Of a stretch of 64,000 nucleotides of DNA, positions 40,681 to 61,185 are shown one piece after another. The first letter of the stretch is position 1, and every line of letters starts with the position of its first letter. The position numbers were made by a program, and so were the translations under genes. The stretch comes from Mobula hypostoma (taxonomy: Eukaryota), in assembly GCF_963921235.1 (NCBI RefSeq), contig NC_086097.1, forward strand, positions 47,494,001 through 47,558,000. Direction: 5' to 3'. The notes under the pieces were generated by a model that searched no databases, was not told the origin of the DNA, and saw nothing but the letters and a program-made list of their open reading frames with translations.

Positions 40681-41290
40681 TTCATCCAATTTATTTTCTA
40701 AATCAGTGCCTGCTCAGGAGTTGCAATGCCTGTCCGTCCACCTTCTCCCAGCACCCAGGGGCCAAAACAGTTTTTCCAGGTGAAGTGGTTATTTGCCTGC
40801 ACTTTTTCCAGTATGTTCATTTGGTGTTCACCGTTTGGCCTCTTCTGTATTAGAGAAATTGAATGCAGATTGATTTATTAATTTGCAGAGCATTTGCAAT
40901 CAGTTTCAGGAGTGACCCTGGCTTTCAAGTTGCTTGCTACTCATTCAATGACCCATTTTTGTCTGTGGTCTCCTGCATTTTTGAGGTTCAATGCAGGCTA
41001 GAGGAATGACATCACATCTTCCATTTGTTATATTGTAGCTGCAGGATTCTGTTGAATTCTCCAGCTTTGGGTAACTTGCTTTTTCTTTCTGTCTGCTTCA
41101 GAACTACCCATTATTGCCAGTTAGCTATCTTGCTCTTCATTTTTCCCCTCATTAATGTTAGCCTGGTCTAACCAATTATTAGCAACATCACAGCACAGTA
41201 GAGCTAATAGGACTTTATGTTTCAATCTCTGTAAGTCGGCACTCTCGATGTTGGCAGTGGGCTTGGAGTGGTGACAAGGAGGGTAGGTAC

Positions 41291-41351
41291 CTCATCGGGG
41301 TCATTAGGTGGGCACCCTCCTTTGACGTTTCGTTGATAAGCCCACGACGTC
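41291..41351 (-). ncRNA. Putative rearranged hammerhead ribozyme, copy 1
   Basis: - strand GACGTC GTGGGC TTATCAAC GAAACGTC AAAGGAGGGT GCCCAC CTAATGA CCCC GATGAG: stem III GACGU/ACGUC, stem I GUGGGC/GCCCAC, intact GAAA, core CUAAUGA (mutated). Confidence 0.55.
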
Positions 41352-44300
41352 TCCAGAGGGCTCGATGCTACCTGGTGTCCCTGATACACCCCCCCCCCAC
41401 CCCCAGTTCCATACGCTCCTGTCTTCATCTTGCAGCCCAGTTGTTGTCTTTCCTTTTAATCCAAATTCATTTGCTGCTTCTGCTACATTTGACAAGGACT
41501 TGATTGCTTGTTGGAGTGAATAACCCCTCACCCCCATCTTCTTCAATAGACTAGTTGTAGATGTAGCCACGAATCCCCTGCATCCCACTTCTACAGGGAA
41601 AATCTTGGTCTTCCAGCCGTTCTGGGCAGATTCAGTTGCCAGTTCAGAGTACTTGATCTTTTTCCTCTCATAAGCTTCTTCAACTCCATCTTCCCATGGT
41701 ACTGTCAATTCCACAATATACGCCAGCTTGGCTGTTGTGGACCACAGGACCACGTCTGGCTGGAGTGTTGTAGCTGCAATGTCTGGGGGGAAACAAACTT
41801 TTTTTCCAAGTCTACATCCATTTTCCATTACTGAGCAACCTGCAGAATGCTTACCTCTTTTGATGTTATGTGGTGCTCTGGAGGTTGGCCTGCTGGTACA
41901 AATCGTATGATGTGAATATTTCTTGCCGATGTTTGTGGGAGAGCATTTGTGGTGATTTGCCTCTGTTCCAAGATTGATCTCAGCTGTCTGAGAACTTGGT
42001 TATGCCGCCAAGTGTACTGCCCCTGGCTGAGGCTCGTGGTGCATCCTGTTAAAATGTGCCTTAGTGATCCAGGTGCTTGACAAAGAGAACAAGCGGGGTC
42101 TTCTCCTCACCACTGGTTCAGGTTCTGGGGTGTGGGTAGGAGGTCATAAGTAGCTCTGATGACAAAACTTAGCTGAGATCCCTCCATCTCCCAGATGTCA
42201 CGCCAGCTGAGTTTCCTCTTTTCCAGGCTCTCCCAATTAGTCCATTGGCCCTGCTTGGATATTGAGATGGCCCTGGCGTGTCAATCTGCCTCTTCCTGTC
42301 TTCTCACCTCCTCCACCACAAGCCGTCTCTTCTGCAGTGATGTTGCCTTGTGCCATTAAGGAGACTTTGGGACGAGCCCGAGCCCGGCTCTCCCAAGTTG
42401 GACTTGACCAACTACATCCCTGAAGCGAAGAGCAGGCTTAGCACTCTGAATGGCTTCAGATGGGCTCCACTTCCTCCCCGTTACCACACGGGGGGAGGGG
42501 GGCCGCTGTTCAAATAACAGTATCTTCAGATTCAGTGAGGGTCATGACCAACCTTGCTTTGGTGCATTGAATTCTTCCACAAGACTTGCAATTGGTAATT
42601 CTAATTTGCTGTTCCCGTACAGTCCAACAGGACATTGTGGAAGTCCAAGCCACTGTTTCACATGTGTGCTGATCACTCTTTTGAGCTTTTCCACCTTGTT
42701 GATGGGGATTTCCTACACTGTTGAAAGTCACATGAATCTTGGGAGTATGCCGAACTGGATGCACTACAGCTGGAGTTTTCCTGGCAGCCAGGTCTTGTTG
42801 ATGCGAGCTATCTACATGATGGTATCTTTTTTGAGTTGTTTAAACTGCTCGGTGTCCTTGAGCTTAGCATCATACCATCGGCCCAAGCTCTTCACCGGCA
42901 TTTCTGAAACATTTGGGACAGGTGTTCCATCAATATGAAATCTTTGATTCTATGACGTGACCTTTGACAATGGAGATGCTTCTGCACTTGCTGGGCATGA
43001 TCTTCATCCTCGCCCATGTGATGTTTTGATGAAGCTTTTCCAGAAGTCTCTTGGTGCAGGGGATAGTTGTCGTCAGTATTGTTATATCGTCCATATAGGT
43101 GGTAACCATTGACCAAACTGTAGCCGTTTTCCCCCGGCAACATGTTTTGAGGCTCAGATAATGAGCTCCATTGCCATAGTGAAGGCCAATGGGGAGATGG
43201 TGCACTCCACCATGATGCCTACTTCCAGTAGTTGCCAAGCTGTGGTGAAGTCTGATGTTGTGAGACAAACTTGCATATCCTGGAAGTAGTGTTTTACCAG
43301 ATTTGTTATTGTTGCAGGCACCTGAAAGAATTCAAAAGCAGTCCACAGTAGGGAATGAGGAACTGATCCATTGGTGTTGGCCAGGTCGAGGGACAAGACA
43401 TGCAGATCCTTTCCTTCTTTCTTAGCCATCTGGATTTGATGCCATATGATGCTGGTATGTTCAAGGCATCCCGAGAAGCCTGCTATGCCAGCCTTTTGGA
43501 TTGACGTATCAATGAAATGGTTTTGTTTCAGATACTTCGTAAGTCTTTGTGCCAACATGCTGAAAAAGATCTTGCCTTCTATATTCAGGTGGTTTATTTG
43601 GCGAAACTGTTTGATGGTGGACGAATTCTTTTCTTTTGGGATCAGAACTGCCCCCGCTCTTCTCCAGGCTTTGGGGATCACTTACTTTTCCTACGCAACT
43701 CTCATGTTTCTCCAGAAAAATTTCAGAACATCCGGGGCATTCTTGTAGACACAATATGGAACAGCGTTAGGGCCTGGCGCTGATGCCGATCTTGCCTCCT
43801 TCACCTCGCTCAGCCTGGCTGATGTTAAGCTGATGTTGTGAGGTGAGATTGGTGGAAATGTCAGCTGGGAAAAGTATCAGTTCATCTTTTAGCTCAGCAG
43901 TGTGGATGGTTCTGAGATGTCTTTCAATCTCTTCTTTTGATACTTTCAAGGATCTGCTTTTCTCTTTCGTGAAAATGCCTTTCACATATTTAAAGGGATC
44001 TTTGTGGAAGCTTGTTCTTGCTTTTTCCTTCTTTTTGCATCGTTTCCTTAAATTCTCCGCTCTTGTGCAGTTTCGAGAGCCTCTGTTTTAGGTCCTCTTG
44101 AAGGAGGTTGATGCCCTCCCTTTCTTCTGCTGTTGCTTTTTTCCATGACTTCCTCAGGCCTCTTCTTTCTTTAACAAGTTGTTGGATTTCCTGGAGATGA
44201 TGGGATTTGGGGGGGGAGGAGGCATAACTTTCCTGCTGACTCGTTTCCTTCACTCCAAATTTCTCCTTTCTGTAGCTGTAAATCAGGTTGCCCATCTTCT

Positions 44301-45098
44301 CCAACTCCTTTTCTGCTGATCCCTTGATGCCACTTAAGATCAGGCTCACATCTGCACTTCTTGCTGTTAGACTTTGGCCATTTCACCAACGGCCTACGTC
44401 CTTGCATGCTCTCCACTTCACGATGTGCCTGGCTGTGCCTTGGACTACTGTTTGTGCCTGAAACTTCTTTCACATCCCGTAGGATGCTGATACTCTGCGG
44501 ACTGTGGGTTTCTTCCTGCTACTGAGTTTCATCTTACTGATTTGACCTTCCTTTTAACAGAATCTGGTCAATACGGGGCCCTGGGTTGGAGGTTTTCAAG
44601 CATTTCTTCCGTCCTTGATGAATTTTAAGACCATGAGTTGATGTTAAATTAGTCCAGCCACACCTACAGGTGTGAAGAACGTGTCCAGTTGCTGGTTTCT
44701 CAAGAGTATTGCCACTTTGATTCATTGTCGTGTCCATGCCAAGGTTCGTTACCGGGAGGTCAGTCAGAGAGTCTTCTTGCACCCCTGCTCTCGCAGACTC
44801 TGGGGGTATACTTCTCTTTAAACTTTCCATAGCCAAGTGAGGGTGGCTCTTGTGCCCTGACAAGGTGACGGAGCCTGCTGTTATGGGTAGCTAGCCCATA
44901 ATAGCCCCGTTGGGGTCTATTTCCTCCTGTCAGCTGTCACATGGTCTTTTCCCTTGTTGTCAGCTGCACTTTCACAGCCGTCACTGGTTTTCTCCCAGAT
45001 CAGTAGAGCTAATAGGACTTGATGTTTCAATCCCTATGATAAGTCGGCACTCTCGATATTGGTAGTGGGCTTGAAGTGGTGACAAGGAGGGTAGATAC

Positions 45099-45162
45099 CT
45101 CATCGGGGTCATCAGGTGGGCACCCTCCTTCTTTGACGTTTTGTTGATAAGCCCACGATGTC
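45099..45162 (-). ncRNA. Putative rearranged hammerhead ribozyme, copy 2
   Basis: - strand GACATC GTGGGC TTATCAAC AAAACGTC AAAGAAGGAGGGT GCCCAC CTGATGA CCCC GATGAG: intact CUGAUGA; GAAA changed to AAAA and GUC to AUC, both at CpG sites. Confidence 0.55.
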
Positions 45163-46197
45163 TCCAGAGGGCTCAACGCTGCTACCTGGTGTCCCAGATA
45201 CACCCCCCTCAGTTCCATACCCTCCTCTCTTCATCTTGCAGCCCAGTTGTTGTCTTTCCTTTTAATCCAAATCCAATTACTGCTTTCTTCTGCTGCATTT
45301 GACAAGGACTTGATTGCTTGTTAGAGTGATTAACCCCTCATCCCCATCTTCTTCAATAGCTAAAGTATGTGGCTTTTAACTGTCACATTAACTCATTTGT
45401 CCTTCCCCTACTAGATATTTTTGCTTATTTATATCCATTCCTTCCTCACTTTCTCCGTCCCCATTCTGACAAAGGGTCTCAGATCTGAAATGCTAACTCA
45501 TATTGCCTGTCCTGCTGAGTGAATATACATGGAAAGTCTGTACCAGGTGGGGGTGAGACCACACTTTGAGGACTGCAAGTCTCAATCTCCGTATTTTAGG
45601 GAAGTTTAGACTTGTATAAGAACTTTCAATTCTCATGCTTCTAAGATAAGAAATGGGAATGCTTTCTAATTGCAGGTGTTAAGTTTTATATGTCATTGCT
45701 AAAATAATGCAGCAACAAGAATTGGACTTGGGCCGATAAAGGGGATAGTAACATTTAAGCCATACAAGTGTGAGTCAGTGATCTTCTCCAATAATAGTCT
45801 AACCAACCCTTTTCATCCACATAGTCCCTCACTCCTCTCCATCCACACTCCTCCATTATTGCATTCAATGCCATGATACTACAAAACCCCACCATTAACA
45901 TCCTTATGTGTCATTATTAACCATACTTCACTACCTTATCTACACAAATATTGAGCAGAGACTGGGCAATGCCTTCCAAACCTTCAGGGCAAGAGTGTAA
46001 GTGGAAATTCTAGGCTTATTGTATTCAGCTTTGAAGGTCTATCCATTTACGTCAAAGTAACCAGTTACACTCACCACCTTGGACCTTAATTCCCTCCAAC
46101 TGAAAAGTACATTGCAGCCTGCGGGACTCATTACTAAATTCTCTCCAAATTCAGACAACTTGATTTTTCTGTTTGTTTCTGGACTAACTGTTGGTAC

Positions 46198-57024: not shown

Positions 57025-60000
57025 AACCATAAGACATAGGTATAAAGTAAGGCTATTTGTCCCATCGAGTCTGCTCTTCCATTCAGTCATGGCTGATCCC
57101 TCCCCCCATCCCCACTCCCCAGCTTCTCCCTGTAGCCTTTGATCCCAAGGCCAATCAAGAGCCTATCAATCTCTGCCTTAAGTACACCCAACGGCCTGAC
57201 TTCACCAAATGCATGGTAATAAATTCCACAAATTCATCACCCTCTGACTAAAGGAATTTTGCCCCATCTCTGTTTTAAATGGATGCCCCTCTATCCTGAA
57301 GCTGTGCCCTCTTGTCCTAGACTCCCCCACCACGTGAAGCATCCTTTCCACATCTACTCTATCTATGCCTTTCAACATTCAAAGGTTTCAATGAGTTTGG
57401 CCACTCATCCTTCTAAATTCCAGCAGGTACAGTCCCAGAGCTATCAAATGTTCCTCATATGATAACCCTTTCATTCCCTGAATCATCTTTGTGAACCTCC
57501 CCTGAACTCTCTCCAATGCCAGCACATCTTTTCTTAGACAAGGAGCTCCAAACTGTTCACAATACATAAGGTGAGGCCTCACCAGTGTCCCGGAAAGCCT
57601 CAGCATTGCATACCTGCTCTTGTATTCTAGACCTCTTGAAATGAATGCTAACATTGCATTTGCCTTCCTCACCACTGACTCAACCTGCAAGTTAACCCTT
57701 AGGGTGTTCTGCACAAGGACTCCCAAGTCTCTGCGTCTCAGAATTTTGGATTTTCTCCTTGTTTAGAAAATAGTCTGCACATTTATTTCTTCTACCAAAG
57801 TGCATGACCATGTGTTTTTCAACACTGTATTTCATTTGCCACTTTCTTGCCCATTCACCTAATCTATCCAAGTCCTTCTGCTACCTTCCTGCCTCAACAC
57901 TACCTGCCCCTCCAGCAATCTTCACATCATATACAAACCTGACAACAAAGCCATCTATTCCATCATCTAAATCATTGATATACAGCATAAAAGGAAATAG
58001 CCCCAACACCAACACCTGCAGAACACCACTAGTCACTGGCAGCCAACCAGAAGAGGACTAATTGCCACTTGCTCAATCCCTTTATCGATCCCACTTGTAA
58101 TCTCCTCAAAGAATTCCAACAGGTTTGTCAAGCAAGATTTTCCCTTAAGGAAACCCCATGTTGACTTTGTCCAATCTTGTTGAGTTTCACCAAGTTTTCC
58201 ATAACCTTATCCTCAACAACTGTCTCCAACATCTTCCCAACCACTGAGATCAAGCTAAATGGTCTACAATTTCCTTTCTGCTGCCTCCCTATTTCTAAAA
58301 GAGTGGAGTGACATTTGCAATTTTCCAGTCCTCTGGAACCACGCCAGAGTCCAATGATTCTTTATACTTTATTGTCGCCAAACAATTGATACTAGAGCTT
58401 ACAATCATCACAGTGATATTTGATTCTGTGCTTCGCGCTCCCTGGAGTACAAATCGATAGTAAATATTAAAAACTTAAATTATAAATCATAAATAGAAAA
58501 TAGAAAAGGGAAAGTAAGGTAGTGCAAAAAAAACCGAGAGACAGGTCCGGATATTTGGAGGGTATGGTCCAGATCTGGGTCAGAATCCATTCAGCAGTCT
58601 TATCACAGTTGGAAAGAAGCTGTTCCCAAATCTGGCTGTACGAGTCTTCAAGCTCCTGAGCCTCCTCCCGGAGGGAAGAGGGATGAAAAGTGTGTTGGCT
58701 GGGAGGGTCATGTCCTTGATTATCCTGGCAGCACTGCTCCGACAGCATGTGGTGTAAAGCGAGTCCAAGGACGGAAGATTGGTTTGTGTGATGTGCTGCG
58801 CTGTGTTCAGGATCTTCTGCAGCTTCTTCTGGTCTTGGACAGGACAACTTCCATACCAGGTTGTGATGCACCCTAGAAGAATGCTTTCTACAGTGCATCT
58901 ATAAAAATTATTGAGGGTTTTAGGGGACAGGCCAAATTTCTTTAGCTTTCTCAGGAAGTAAGGGCGCTGGTGGGCCTTCTTGGCAGTGGGCTCTGCTTGG
59001 TTGGACCAAGTCAGGTCATTTGTGATATTGACCCCCAGGAACCTAAAGCTTTTGACCTGTTCCACTTGCGCACCACTGATGTAAATGGGGTTGTGCAGTC
59101 CGCTACTCCTTCTGAAGTCAACAACTAATTCCTTCGTCTTGCTGACAATAGGTTATTGTCTTCGCACCATGCCACCAGGTTCTTAATTTCCTCTCTGTAC
59201 TCAAACTCATCATTACCCGAGATATGGCCTACAATTGTGGTGTCATCAGCAAACTTATATATTGAGTTCGATGGAAACTCCGCTACACAATCATGGCTGT
59301 ACAGTGAGTACAGCAGGGGGCTGAGTACACAGCCTTGTGGGGCACCAGTGCTCAGAGTGATTGTAGAGGAGATCTTGCCCCCTATTTTTACAGCCTGGGT
59401 CCTGTCTGTGAGGAAGCTGAAGATCCAGCTGCAGATCTGAGTGCTAAGGCCCAGGTTCCGGAGCTTAGGAATCAGTTTATTTGGAATGATGGTATTAAAA
59501 GCAGAGCTGTAGTCAATGAAAAGGAGCTTTACATATGCGTCTTTATTCTCCAGGTGTTCTAAGGAGGAATGTAGGGCCAGAGAGATGGCATCTGCCGTTG
59601 ACCTGTTGCTCCGGTAGGCGAATTGCAAAGCATCTTGGTTGACCGGTAGGCTGTGGTTGATGTGTGCCATAACCAATCGCTCGAAGCATTTCATAGCAAT
59701 TGATGTCAGAGCCACAGGTCGATAGTCATTCAGGCATGCCACCTTGCTCTTCTTTGGCACCGGGATTATCATTGCCTTCTTAAAACATGAGGGGATCTTA
59801 GACTGAAGCAAGGAGCAGTTGAACATGTCAACAAACACTCCAGCTAGCTCGCTTGCACAGGCCCAGAGAACCCGTCCCAGGACGCCATCTGGGCACATCG
59901 CCTTCCTTGGATTTATCTTCAGGAAGGCCTTTCTAACGTCCTCCTCAGTGACAATGAATCTCGATGCCACCAGGTCCAGTTCATCCGAAGGAAGTGGGAC

Positions 60001-61185
60001 GCTACTCTTCTGTTTGAATCTTGCATAGAATACGTTAAGTTCGTCAGGAAGAGAAGCACCACAGTTATTGATATTCCCAGCTTTTTCTTTGCACCCAGTG
60101 ATCTCATTTAGACCCTGCCATAGTCTACTGGCATCCCTCTGGTTAGCCTGGGCTTCCAGCTTGGCTCGATATTGCCTCTTGGCACCCTTAATAGCTTGAA
60201 ACATCATTACGAATGCCTCAACAATCTCTACCACTACCTCTTTCAGAACCCTAAGGTGCAGCTCATCTGGTTCGACTGACTTGTGTAGCTTTAGGTCTTT
60301 CAGCTTTTTGAACACCTTCTCCCTTGTAATAGTAACTGCACTCACTTCTCTTCCCTCACACTCTTAACTCCTGGCTCGTTGCTAATGTCTGATGCAAAAT
60401 ACTTATTTAGTTCATCTGCCATCTCCTTATCCCTGTTATTATTTCTCCAGCCTCATTTTCTAGTGGTTCTAATTCCACTCAACTCTCTTTTATGTGCTTG
60501 AAAAAGCTTTTTCTATCTACCTTGATATTGTTTGCTAGCTTACTTTCATATTTCATCTTTTTCCCTTCTAATGATTCTTTTAGTTGCTTTCTGTAAATTT
60601 TTTTTTTAAAGCTTCCCAATCCTCTACCTTCTCTCTAATTTTTGCTTTGTTGTATGCACTCTTTAGTTCTTTGACCTCCCTTGTCAGCCATAGTTGTACT
60701 ATTTTGCCATTTGTGTATTTCTTTATTTTTGGAATACAGTTATCCTGCACCTTCATCAATTTTTCCAGAAACTCAAGCCATTGCTGCTGTGCTGTCGTCC
60801 CTGCCAGCATCTCCTTCCAACTTACTTTGGCTAGCTCCTCTGTCCTACCACTGTAATTTCCTTTACATTGTAATTCTGCAACATCACACATTGTTTTCTC
60901 CCAGTCAAATTTCAAGTTCAACTCAATCAAATTGTGATCACTATCTCCTAAGGGTTCCTTACCTTAAGCTCTCTAAACATCTCCAGTTCATAACGCCCAA
61001 TCCAGTATAGCTGATTCCCTACTAGGCTCAATGACAAACTGCTCTAAAAAGCCATCTTGTAGGCATTCGGCAAATTCACTTTCGAGATCCATTACCAACT
61101 TGATTTCCCCAATATATCTGCATGTTAAAATTTCCCATGATTGTCATAACTTTGCCCTTTTGACACAACTTTTCTATTTCCTTTT
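57025..61185 (-). mobile_element. CR1 LINE (ORF2 from endonuclease to 3' tail) in the XRCC3 intron, split by a Rex1 insertion
   Basis: Same subfamily as 16937-18990; the sequence CCAATGATTCTT|GAAA is split at ~58360 and ~60195. Confidence 0.85.
58361..60194 (-). mobile_element. Young Rex1/Babar-type LINE, 5'-truncated
   Basis: RT nearly open: KAMCPDGV, DYRPVALTSIAMKCFERLV, LFIDYSSAFNTI, GAPQGCVLSPLLY, KFADDTT; one frameshift near 59145; then FLGVNITNDLTW..SFFPTVIRLLN, AATAAA and an AAGTAT tail. Confidence 0.9.

What the first reader, a model, noticed from the sequence alone, without database searches (positions are those of the whole stretch)
41196..45359. Non-LTR RLE element with a Penelope/retrozyme-like terminal direct repeat
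Seen: the final ~355 bp of the element (last ~40 codons plus the whole 3' UTR, 41196-41549) recur immediately upstream of its 5' end (45001-45359). Both stop at the same terminal ...GTCCTATTAGCTCTACTG, with no poly(A) and no evident TSD. The copies differ by scattered substitutions and indels, comparable with the decay of the ORF. Each repeat holds the hammerhead-like motif, so cleavage at both would release a unit-length RNA of about 3.8 kb (45156 to 41346). Inference: more-than-unit-length reverse transcription of a circular or tandem RNA would give this redundancy, as proposed for Penelope elements and retrozymes. Alternative: an independent 5'-truncated copy or template jump next to the first.
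Basis: partly seen in the sequence, partly recalled or inferred. Interest (0 to 1): 0.7.

Follow-up and report, generated by a model that had tools for sequence, protein, structure and literature searches.

The report
LINE retrotransposon with rewired hammerhead ribozyme
This decayed jumping gene belongs to a widespread animal family whose copies often repeat their own tail in front of their head and carry, in that tail, a self-cutting RNA motif wired in an order not found in the papers searched, which suggests these elements copy themselves from a self-cut, probably circular RNA as Penelope elements are thought to do.

Summary
In detail: 41196-41549 recurs at 45001-45359 (22 substitutions in 346 aligned bases, 5 indels), without poly(A) or TSD, flanking a decayed RT/RLE (HERO-like) LINE. 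It is a family trait. Among related metagenome loci with an intact 5' start, 19 of 23 are preceded by 3'-end sequence. Six of ten individual insertions with host flanks carry repeats of 31 to about 1,270 bp. The same junction occurs in another organism's contigs. The 3' UTR holds a full hammerhead core in non-circular S-G-C order: 31 sense-strand hits in 285 kb against 2 in 1.43 Mb of control. Unlike the published type-SGC ribozymes, canonical stem II is absent (10.1-11.1 paired in 2 of 24). C11.1 pairs with an upstream G, and a four-way junction replaces the A9-10.1 link. One copy's 5' end lies at the predicted cut. Both window copies have lost core bases, so this locus is dead. Best model: ribozyme-cut unit RNA, probably circularised, with internal initiation and more-than-unit reverse transcription. 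Cleavage and circles are untested; template jumping and self-targeted insertion remain rivals.

The parts
41196..45000 (-). Unit-length decayed non-LTR retrotransposon (3,805 bp; HERO-like RT/RLE LINE)
   Evidence: the 3' flank junction is also seen in one contig of run X5 (record 25)
41425..44830 (-). Single ORF, broken by many stops and frameshifts; 58-63% identical to intact relative P0002 (1,149 aa) over the two main HSPs
   Evidence: tblastn
44600..44672 (-). N-terminal Cys/His zinc-finger-like motif (approximate bounds)
   Evidence: translation; conserved in alignment A2
42939..43681 (-). Reverse transcriptase domain
   Evidence: Pfam RVT_1 E 4e-9 and 2.8e-5; best solved relatives are R2 proteins
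42041..42091 (-). CCHC knuckle
   Evidence: translation; invariant C927 C930 H938 C943 of A2
41640..41765 (-). Restriction-like endonuclease core (PD...E...K type)
   Evidence: translation; invariant R1037 P1038 D1039 E1054 of A2
41294..41399 (-). 3' UTR hammerhead-type motif, downstream copy (C17 = 41346); G5 is A, 3-nt deletions at the b/c helices and in the III'-d' linker
   Evidence: nhmmer E 2e-8 with a model built without the window rows
41196..41549 (-). Downstream terminal repeat (ORF end plus 3' UTR)
44831..45000 (-). 5' UTR, starting with the family-conserved start motif (CTGG ... CAGTGAC)
44995..45009 (-). Head-to-tail junction, 3' end | 5' start, at 45001|45000
   Evidence: same joint (44999 or 44996 back to 41196) in contigs of run X10
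45001..45359 (-). Upstream terminal repeat (359 bp; last 42 codons plus whole 3' UTR), reaching 202 nt past the predicted cut
45102..45211 (-). Hammerhead-type motif, upstream copy (C17 = 45157); G12 and G16.2 are A
   Evidence: nhmmer E 7e-12

Best explanation
A HERO-like RLE LINE family has converged on a Penelope-like life cycle. (1, shown) Its 3' UTR carries a conserved hammerhead core in S-G-C order. The strand before GAAA pairs with an upstream strand (helix c, the functional stem II, G-C at 11.1), the strand after CUGAnGA pairs with another upstream strand (helix a), and a hairpin (b) closes a four-way junction. (2, shown) Insertions have a near-fixed 3' end about 100-400 nt past the predicted cut and often run beyond one unit, leaving an upstream repeat of variable length. 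(3, inferred) Read-through transcription of such a partial tandem is cut at both ribozymes into a unit RNA with 5'-OH and 2',3'-cyclic-phosphate ends, which is ligated, probably by RtcB. (4, inferred) The RT/RLE protein nicks non-specific DNA, starts reverse transcription internally at the 3'-end|5'-start junction and goes round the template. Most products are 5'-truncated, some stop near one unit, and some displace their own strand and continue, regenerating a partial tandem with a whole upstream ribozyme. The window copy is such a product that has since decayed. Probabilities: family-wide redundancy 0.9; intact relatives self-cleave 0.85; ligated circle rather than linear template 0.5.
For: 19 of 23 related loci with an intact 5' start follow 3'-end sequence (14 of 18 families at an 85% identity cut). 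Four insertions of one family with unrelated flanks share one junction, with repeats of about 110, 390, 440 and 1,270 bp. L001 has a 31-bp repeat. The joint also appears in contigs of organism D. At least five flanked repeats (window, L038, L043, L052, L074) extend across the cut site, so the template was continuous or rejoined there. L029's 5' end lies 1 nt after the predicted cut (-5 to +2 allowing microhomology). 3' ends scatter a few bases around the junction, and some (L005, L042) include bases of the 5'-start side, as internal initiation predicts. Structure: 88.5% of cells paired, covariation 0.46, 0 of 500 shuffles as high; own-versus-other pairing for helices a, c and d 0 of 20,000 permutations each; the 3:8 pair is C-G 20, U-A 2, U-G 2 of 24. 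There is no depth excess over the last 150 nt, where a linear monomer's RT would fall off (contigs only, weak). The PLE circle model and RtcB ligation of retrozymes are in print.
Against: No cleavage, circle or RNA end was observed. Both window cores are mutated. Four of ten flanked full-length relatives (L004, L008, L012, L031) start at the junction with no long repeat. L015 joins family A's whole 3' UTR to family B's ORF (68% identical), which a single circle cannot give; it may be a trans jump, a targeted insertion or an assembly chimera. L074's two repeats (95.2%) are no more alike than independent copies (92-97%). In the anole PLE, hammerhead mutants still insert in vitro and no RNA-seq ends were found at the cut (PMC11167929). 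Many related contigs are collapsed short-read assemblies. L029 is one case.
Confidence: 0.55

Rival explanations
1. Linear template with jumps. The ribozyme only defines the RNA's 5' end (and may aid cap-independent translation), as R2's HDV-like ribozyme does. The RT starts internally on a linear cut or part-cut RNA, and longer-than-unit products come from end-to-end template jumps in cis or in trans.
For: L029 ends at the predicted cut, the natural stop on a linear 5'-OH template. L015 joins two families. R2 RT's continuous synthesis on non-continuous templates and its strand displacement are published (seen as reference titles and a listing; details recalled). Ribozyme-dependent translation is described.
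Against: Every insertion longer than about 150 nt must cross the cut site if both ribozymes cut, yet that site is seamless in the aligned copies. In L015 the family switch is not at the cut site: family A's ribozyme is self-consistent on both sides. No pile-up of 150-nt copies (weak).
Confidence: 0.28
2. Self-targeted insertion. The endonuclease favours the 5' boundary of its own family, so independent 5'-truncated copies land head to tail in front of full-length ones, and the ribozyme serves another purpose.
For: Summed contig depth at the 3' end is 14 to 85 times that at the 5' end, so truncated copies are plentiful. L015 is a two-family tandem. Tandem insertion is known for Utopia.
Against: The window's 3' end and 12 related 3' ends run into sequence that is not the 5' start, so no strict target. 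The window's two repeats share two variants that differ from the commonest loose-end consensus in runs X1 and X5. Their 6.4% divergence is no more than twice this copy's distance from the family (at most about 6% of places differ). Self-targeting does not explain a 5' end at the cut site.
Confidence: 0.12
3. One-off event at this locus or assembly artefact: a chance adjacent insertion, a local duplication or a mis-join.
Against: The same junction in other insertions, samples and organisms; the repeats differ by 6.4% with indels; flanks are unique in the window.
Confidence: 0.03

Closest known systems
Type-SGC hammerhead ribozymes (HRIMA-1 and variant; Eckert et al. 2023, PMC10085705)
   Same: Block order site, GAAA, CUGAnGA; short linker from stem I to stem II; an extra helix tying the far ends of stems I and II (helix d here); all core bases.
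   Different: Theirs have a canonical stem II, assume CUGAnGA and its stem II strand are contiguous, and were not found in genomes of known organisms. Here the 10.1 partner comes from an upstream strand, A9 leads into a four-way junction, and the host is an animal retrotransposon.
Penelope-like elements with pLTR hammerheads (Cervera and De la Pena 2014, PMC4209133; Frangieh et al. 2024, PMC11167929)
   Same: Partial-tandem copies, hammerhead in the terminal repeat, internal initiation, proposed circular template.
   Different: PLEs have a telomerase-like RT and GIY-YIG endonuclease and minimal type I hammerheads without stem III. This element has an R2-like RT, CCHC and RLE, and a monomeric motif with a 5-7 bp stem III.
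HERO clade of RLE non-LTR retrotransposons (label recalled from motifs and host range)
   Same: Single ORF with RT and RLE; no fixed target; relatives in fishes, lamprey and lancelet, matching the range stated in PMC9004415.
   Different: No terminal repeat, tandem habit or ribozyme for HERO was found in the searches listed; Repbase entries and Kojima and Fujiwara 2004 could not be read.
R2 elements with 5' HDV-like ribozymes
   Same: Closest solved proteins; ribozyme frees the element RNA from a longer transcript.
   Different: R2's ribozyme is HDV-like, sits at the 5' end, and the element targets 28S rDNA. Here the motif is a hammerhead in the 3' UTR that reaches the 5' side only through the repeat.
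Non-LTR retrozymes (Cervera and De la Pena 2020, PMC7229834)
   Same: Tandem repeats with hammerheads giving unit RNA; RtcB circularises them in vitro.
   Different: Short, non-coding, non-autonomous, type I hammerheads.
Drosophila TART and HeT-A (recalled, no call)
   Same: Non-LTR elements with terminal redundancy and head-to-tail arrays.
   Different: Telomere-specific Jockey-group elements; no hammerhead known to me.

Membership tests
RLE non-LTR retrotransposon | Single ORF with RT, CCHC knuckle and PD-(D/E)xK restriction-like endonuclease | tested here: met
RLE non-LTR retrotransposon | Shared 3' end with 5'-truncated copies (TPRT signature) | tested here: met
   3'-to-5' depth ratio 14-85 in three DNA runs (not a copy number)
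HERO clade | RT groups with named HERO references | not testable with these tools
   No named HERO sequence could be fetched; the tree has no references
HERO clade | Mostly non-specific targets; fish and lancelet hosts | tested here: met
   varied 3' flanks; hosts; descriptions
Hammerhead ribozyme | Core CUGAnGA, GAAA, UH with H not G, and a 3:8 pair | tested here: met
   In 24 relatives: H17 = C 9, A 9, U 6; 3:8 = CG 20, UA 2, UG 2 (these were search criteria, chance rate 2 per 1.43 Mb). Not met in the two window copies.
Hammerhead ribozyme | Stems I and III flush with the core, with covariation | tested here: met
   four pair types at 1.1-2.1; several in stem III
Hammerhead ribozyme | Canonical stem II (10.1 pairs with 11.1 right after CUGAnGA) | tested here: not met
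   2 of 24 paired; 0 of 18 and covariation at shuffle level, 88 of 500. Replaced by upstream helix c.
Hammerhead ribozyme | Site-specific self-cleavage after N17 | not testable with these tools
   Only indirect: L029 5' end at the site
Type-SGC hammerhead | S-G-C block order and I-II interaction helix | tested here: met
Type-SGC hammerhead | Block C unbroken (CUGAnGA followed directly by its stem II strand) | tested here: not met
   definition
Penelope-like elements | GIY-YIG endonuclease and telomerase-like RT | tested here: not met
   RLE motif present; nearest solved proteins are R2 and L1
Penelope-like elements | Partial-tandem (pLTR) architecture | tested here: met
Non-LTR retrozymes | Short non-coding unit with type I hammerhead | tested here: not met
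   3.8-kb coding unit, S-G-C motif

The most novel reading that the evidence does not exclude
An autonomous R2-related LINE clade spread across fishes and marine invertebrates replicates through a ribozyme-cut, ligated circular RNA by internally initiated, rolling reverse transcription. It uses a hammerhead topology outside the six permutations proposed so far, with the catalytic core opened between A9 and 10.1 and closed by a four-way junction.
Probability: 0.45. Interest if true: 0.92.

Novelty: new variant of a known kind. Interest (0 to 1): 0.82.

Why it matters
It would put a non-circularly permuted hammerhead, so far reported only from environmental sequences and one bacterial candidate, into animal genomes at high copy, and break the assumption that CUGAnGA and its stem II strand cannot be separated. 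Pattern searches built on that assumption, and Rfam, miss it. It would also show that the Penelope-type cycle (terminal redundancy, hammerhead, internal initiation, proposed circle) evolved again in an unrelated RT lineage next to R2. That gives a second system in which to test the open question of whether retroelement hammerheads make circular templates. R2-like proteins are being developed for gene insertion, so an RT that starts internally or copies circles would be of practical interest.

Tried and rejected
No host genome is held, so no genome-wide census was possible. Rfam at E up to 10 gave six chance-level matches and no ribozyme. Single-strand folding does not recover the pseudoknotted motif (z +0.43 and -0.70 on the two motif windows). 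The relatives scan of viral contigs found 0 relatives among 23 candidate stretches, and one exact motif pattern gave 0 matches there. No RNA holder is on record among 24 listed runs; run X15 is only guessed to be RNA and holds contigs, so it says nothing on expression, ends or circles. A standard type I, II or III fold was rejected because the block order is S-G-C; a canonical type-SGC fold was rejected. tRNA-like stretches before the ribozyme in some loci gave 0 ARAGORN genes in 7 loci. No ribozyme was seen after 5 of 41 ORF ends (L019, L048, L064, L067, L072); three are the most distant relatives, and L019's sister group carries it 1.6 kb downstream, beyond that contig's end. The first MAFFT alignment mis-registered 3 of 25 rows, so anchored counts were used; in A5, 7 of 18 rows are one column off in helices c and d, which lowers the figures. 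Earlier scan notes held nothing on this family. Table 7 was cut (1,125 rows hidden), so loose ends at 45000 were not seen.
Full report
OBSERVATION. The minus strand of 41196-45000 is a decayed single-ORF retrotransposon: ORF 44830-41425 with a Cys/His finger, RT (Pfam RVT_1), CCHC knuckle and restriction-like endonuclease. Its last 354 bp recur at 45001-45359, with 22 substitutions in 346 aligned bases and 5 indel events; there is no TSD or poly(A) and no other copy in the window. A search with the RT piece returned 181 proteins at E up to 1e-10 among 476 candidates; named ones are mostly fishes, plus lamprey and lancelet. The nearest solved proteins are R2 (E 2e-42). The label HERO is recalled from motifs and fits the host range in PMC9004415 (passages) and the description in PMC4640811 (passages); it was not tested against named references.

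IS THE REPEAT A FAMILY TRAIT? No host genome is held, so I fetched related loci: 79 from metagenome contigs (the best 80 of 128 confirmed stretches) and 1 from genome contigs. Many contigs are circular or permuted, running from ORF end through the 3' UTR into the 5' UTR. Of 23 loci with an intact 5' start and upstream sequence, 19 are preceded by 3'-end sequence and 4 (L004, L008, L012, L031) are not; L019 and L020 were left out because the start motif was not matched. Collapsed assemblies only show that the junction exists, so individual insertions matter more. Of 10 with a host 5' flank, 6 carry a repeat: L001 31 bp, L029 about 110, L038 about 280, L052 about 390 (with a deletion), L043 about 440, L074 about 1,270. 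L029, L043, L052 and L074 are one family with unrelated flanks and one junction. For the 4 without, their own 3' ends are not in the contigs, so a repeat under about 15 bp is not excluded. Laying 4 of the 24 listed runs on 41100-45001 showed the joint back to 41196 in contigs of run X10 (from 44999, 2 contigs; also from 44996), whose organism label differs from that of the run holding this locus's 3' flank; the joint table was cut, and the listed row shows none for X1, X5 or X15. The window's 3' end and 12 related 3' ends run into sequence other than the 5' start, so the element is not confined to its own ends.

AGE OF THE TWO REPEATS. In runs X1 and X5, 240 and 238 of 3,902 places show another letter in at least 20% of depth, so this copy is at most about 6% from its family. 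The 6.4% between repeats fits two sequences that were alike at insertion. Both repeats share two variants that differ from the commonest loose-end consensus in those runs, though one of them is also common in X10. This excludes different ages but not two insertions of one subfamily.

THE RNA MOTIF. A descriptor asking for site, GAAA, CUGAnGA in that order, with stems I and III of at least 4 bp, found 31 sense-strand sites in 285,418 bases of loci (29 outside ORFs, 2 chance-like inside), 1 antisense site, none in the window, and 2 in 1.43 Mb of Markov control. Of 41 ORF ends, 32 have the motif on the contig, 4 contigs end too soon and 5 show none (the profile was built from 20 of these rows). 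In 24 sequences (near-duplicates L002, L011, L013, L022 dropped), position 1.1-2.1 shows four pair types, and the 3:8 pair includes the U-A covariant twice. The pair 10.1-11.1 forms in only 2 of 24. Instead 11.1 is C in 23 of 24, and the five bases before GAAA pair with an upstream strand starting with G (mean 4.7 bp with own sequence, 2.9 with others). The bases after CUGAnGA pair further upstream (7.3 vs 3.7; up to 14 bp), and a helix d links the far ends of stems I and II (5.8 vs 4.1); 0 of 20,000 permutations reached any of the three. A hairpin b lies flush between a and c with 4 or more pairs in 16 of 24; in the window's subgroup helix a is only 3-4 bp. On an 18-row alignment the proposed helices pair in 88.5% of cells with covariation 0.46 (0 of 500 shuffles; slid controls 39-50%), while canonical stem II is at shuffle level. 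Relatedness inflates such counts, and the start of c was chosen by pairing. A profile built without the window rows finds exactly the two window copies (E 7e-12 and 2e-8). Each has lost different core bases (G5 downstream; G12 and G16.2 upstream), so the locus is a fossil of an intact ancestor (inference).

COMPARISON. Eckert et al. 2023 (PMC10085705; parts 2-5 of 8 read, plus passages of text and supplement) describe type-SGC hammerheads with the same order, a short I-II linker and an interaction helix. [quoted passage not shown] The motif here is that fold reopened between A9 and 10.1. By established hammerhead and four-way-junction geometry, c would stack on the G12-A9 pair and a on b (inference). 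The partial-tandem and circle model for PLEs is in PMC4209133 (passages) and PMC6765202 (passages). Internal initiation, and the lack of need for cleavage in vitro, are in PMC11167929 (parts 1-2 of 4). RtcB circularisation of retrozymes is in PMC7229834 (passages). Also seen: bioRxiv 2026.07.22.740005 (part 1 of 5), PMC7650587, PMC13580325 and PMC13725137 (passages), PMC5678591 (no match). Searches that found no report of a hammerhead or terminal repeat in HERO or other RLE elements: 0 papers; 0 papers; most hits were seen as listings only. The library lacks most subscription papers and Repbase Reports, so prior notice there is possible.

MECHANISM. Genomic 3' ends lie about 100-400 nt past the predicted cut (155 nt or so here), not at it. 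If both ribozymes cut, the RT must start inside the unit RNA and cross the cut site. A copy without an upstream ribozyme would give an RNA lacking its own 3' end, so only partial tandems can be masters, and something must regenerate them. Repeats that run past the cut, a seamless cut site, 3' ends scattered around a conserved junction motif (cross-family register, small numbers) and one 5' end at the cut (L029) fit a cut RNA that is rejoined and copied more than once round. Against this: L015 joins two families, 4 of 10 flanked copies stop at the junction, L074's repeats are no closer than sister copies, and nothing here shows cleavage or circles. I put the circle model at 0.55, linear template with jumps at 0.28, self-targeting at 0.12, and a one-off or artefact at 0.03.

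VERDICT. The feature is real and family-wide. It works like a Penelope element but is not one. It carries a hammerhead-type motif that meets the core tests and fails the canonical stem II test in a consistent, covarying way. New variant of a known kind; interest 0.82.

Noticed in passing
L015:85-7330: Two families only 68% identical lie head to tail, each with a self-consistent ribozyme: trans template jump, cross-family targeting or assembly chimera.
   Followed up: partly
L074:5776-5904: An inverted ORF fragment sits just 5' of the 1.27-kb upstream repeat, like the inverted 5' pieces recalled for PLE and L1 insertions.
   Followed up: no
window 41282 to 44717 (run X5): One contig joins the 3'-terminal 87 bp to the 5' 280 bp, an internally deleted derivative lacking most of the ribozyme.
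   Followed up: no
window about 41755: Summed contig depth falls two- to five-fold here in the three DNA runs; possibly an abundant short 3' derivative of about 560 bp.
   Followed up: no
L020:526-648 and L022:4987-5098: A distant family (37% identity) has the same motif 1.6 kb after the ORF, in a long spacer with minisatellites, also head to tail.
   Followed up: partly
L037:2450-2520, L065:1860-1960, L016:3290-3338: tRNA-like stretches between the stop codon and the ribozyme; ARAGORN called none.
   Followed up: partly
L080; P0078; P0092: Relatives filed under bacterial names (a Solemya symbiont, Epulopiscium, Vibrio) are probably animal host DNA in those assemblies.
   Followed up: no
L004:1-2181: A second, more distant relative lies on the opposite strand 1.5 kb upstream of the main element.
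   Followed up: no
window 59302-60093: Weak RT match (19%, E 2e-7) to another LINE; the window holds at least 60 dispersed repeat families.
   Followed up: no
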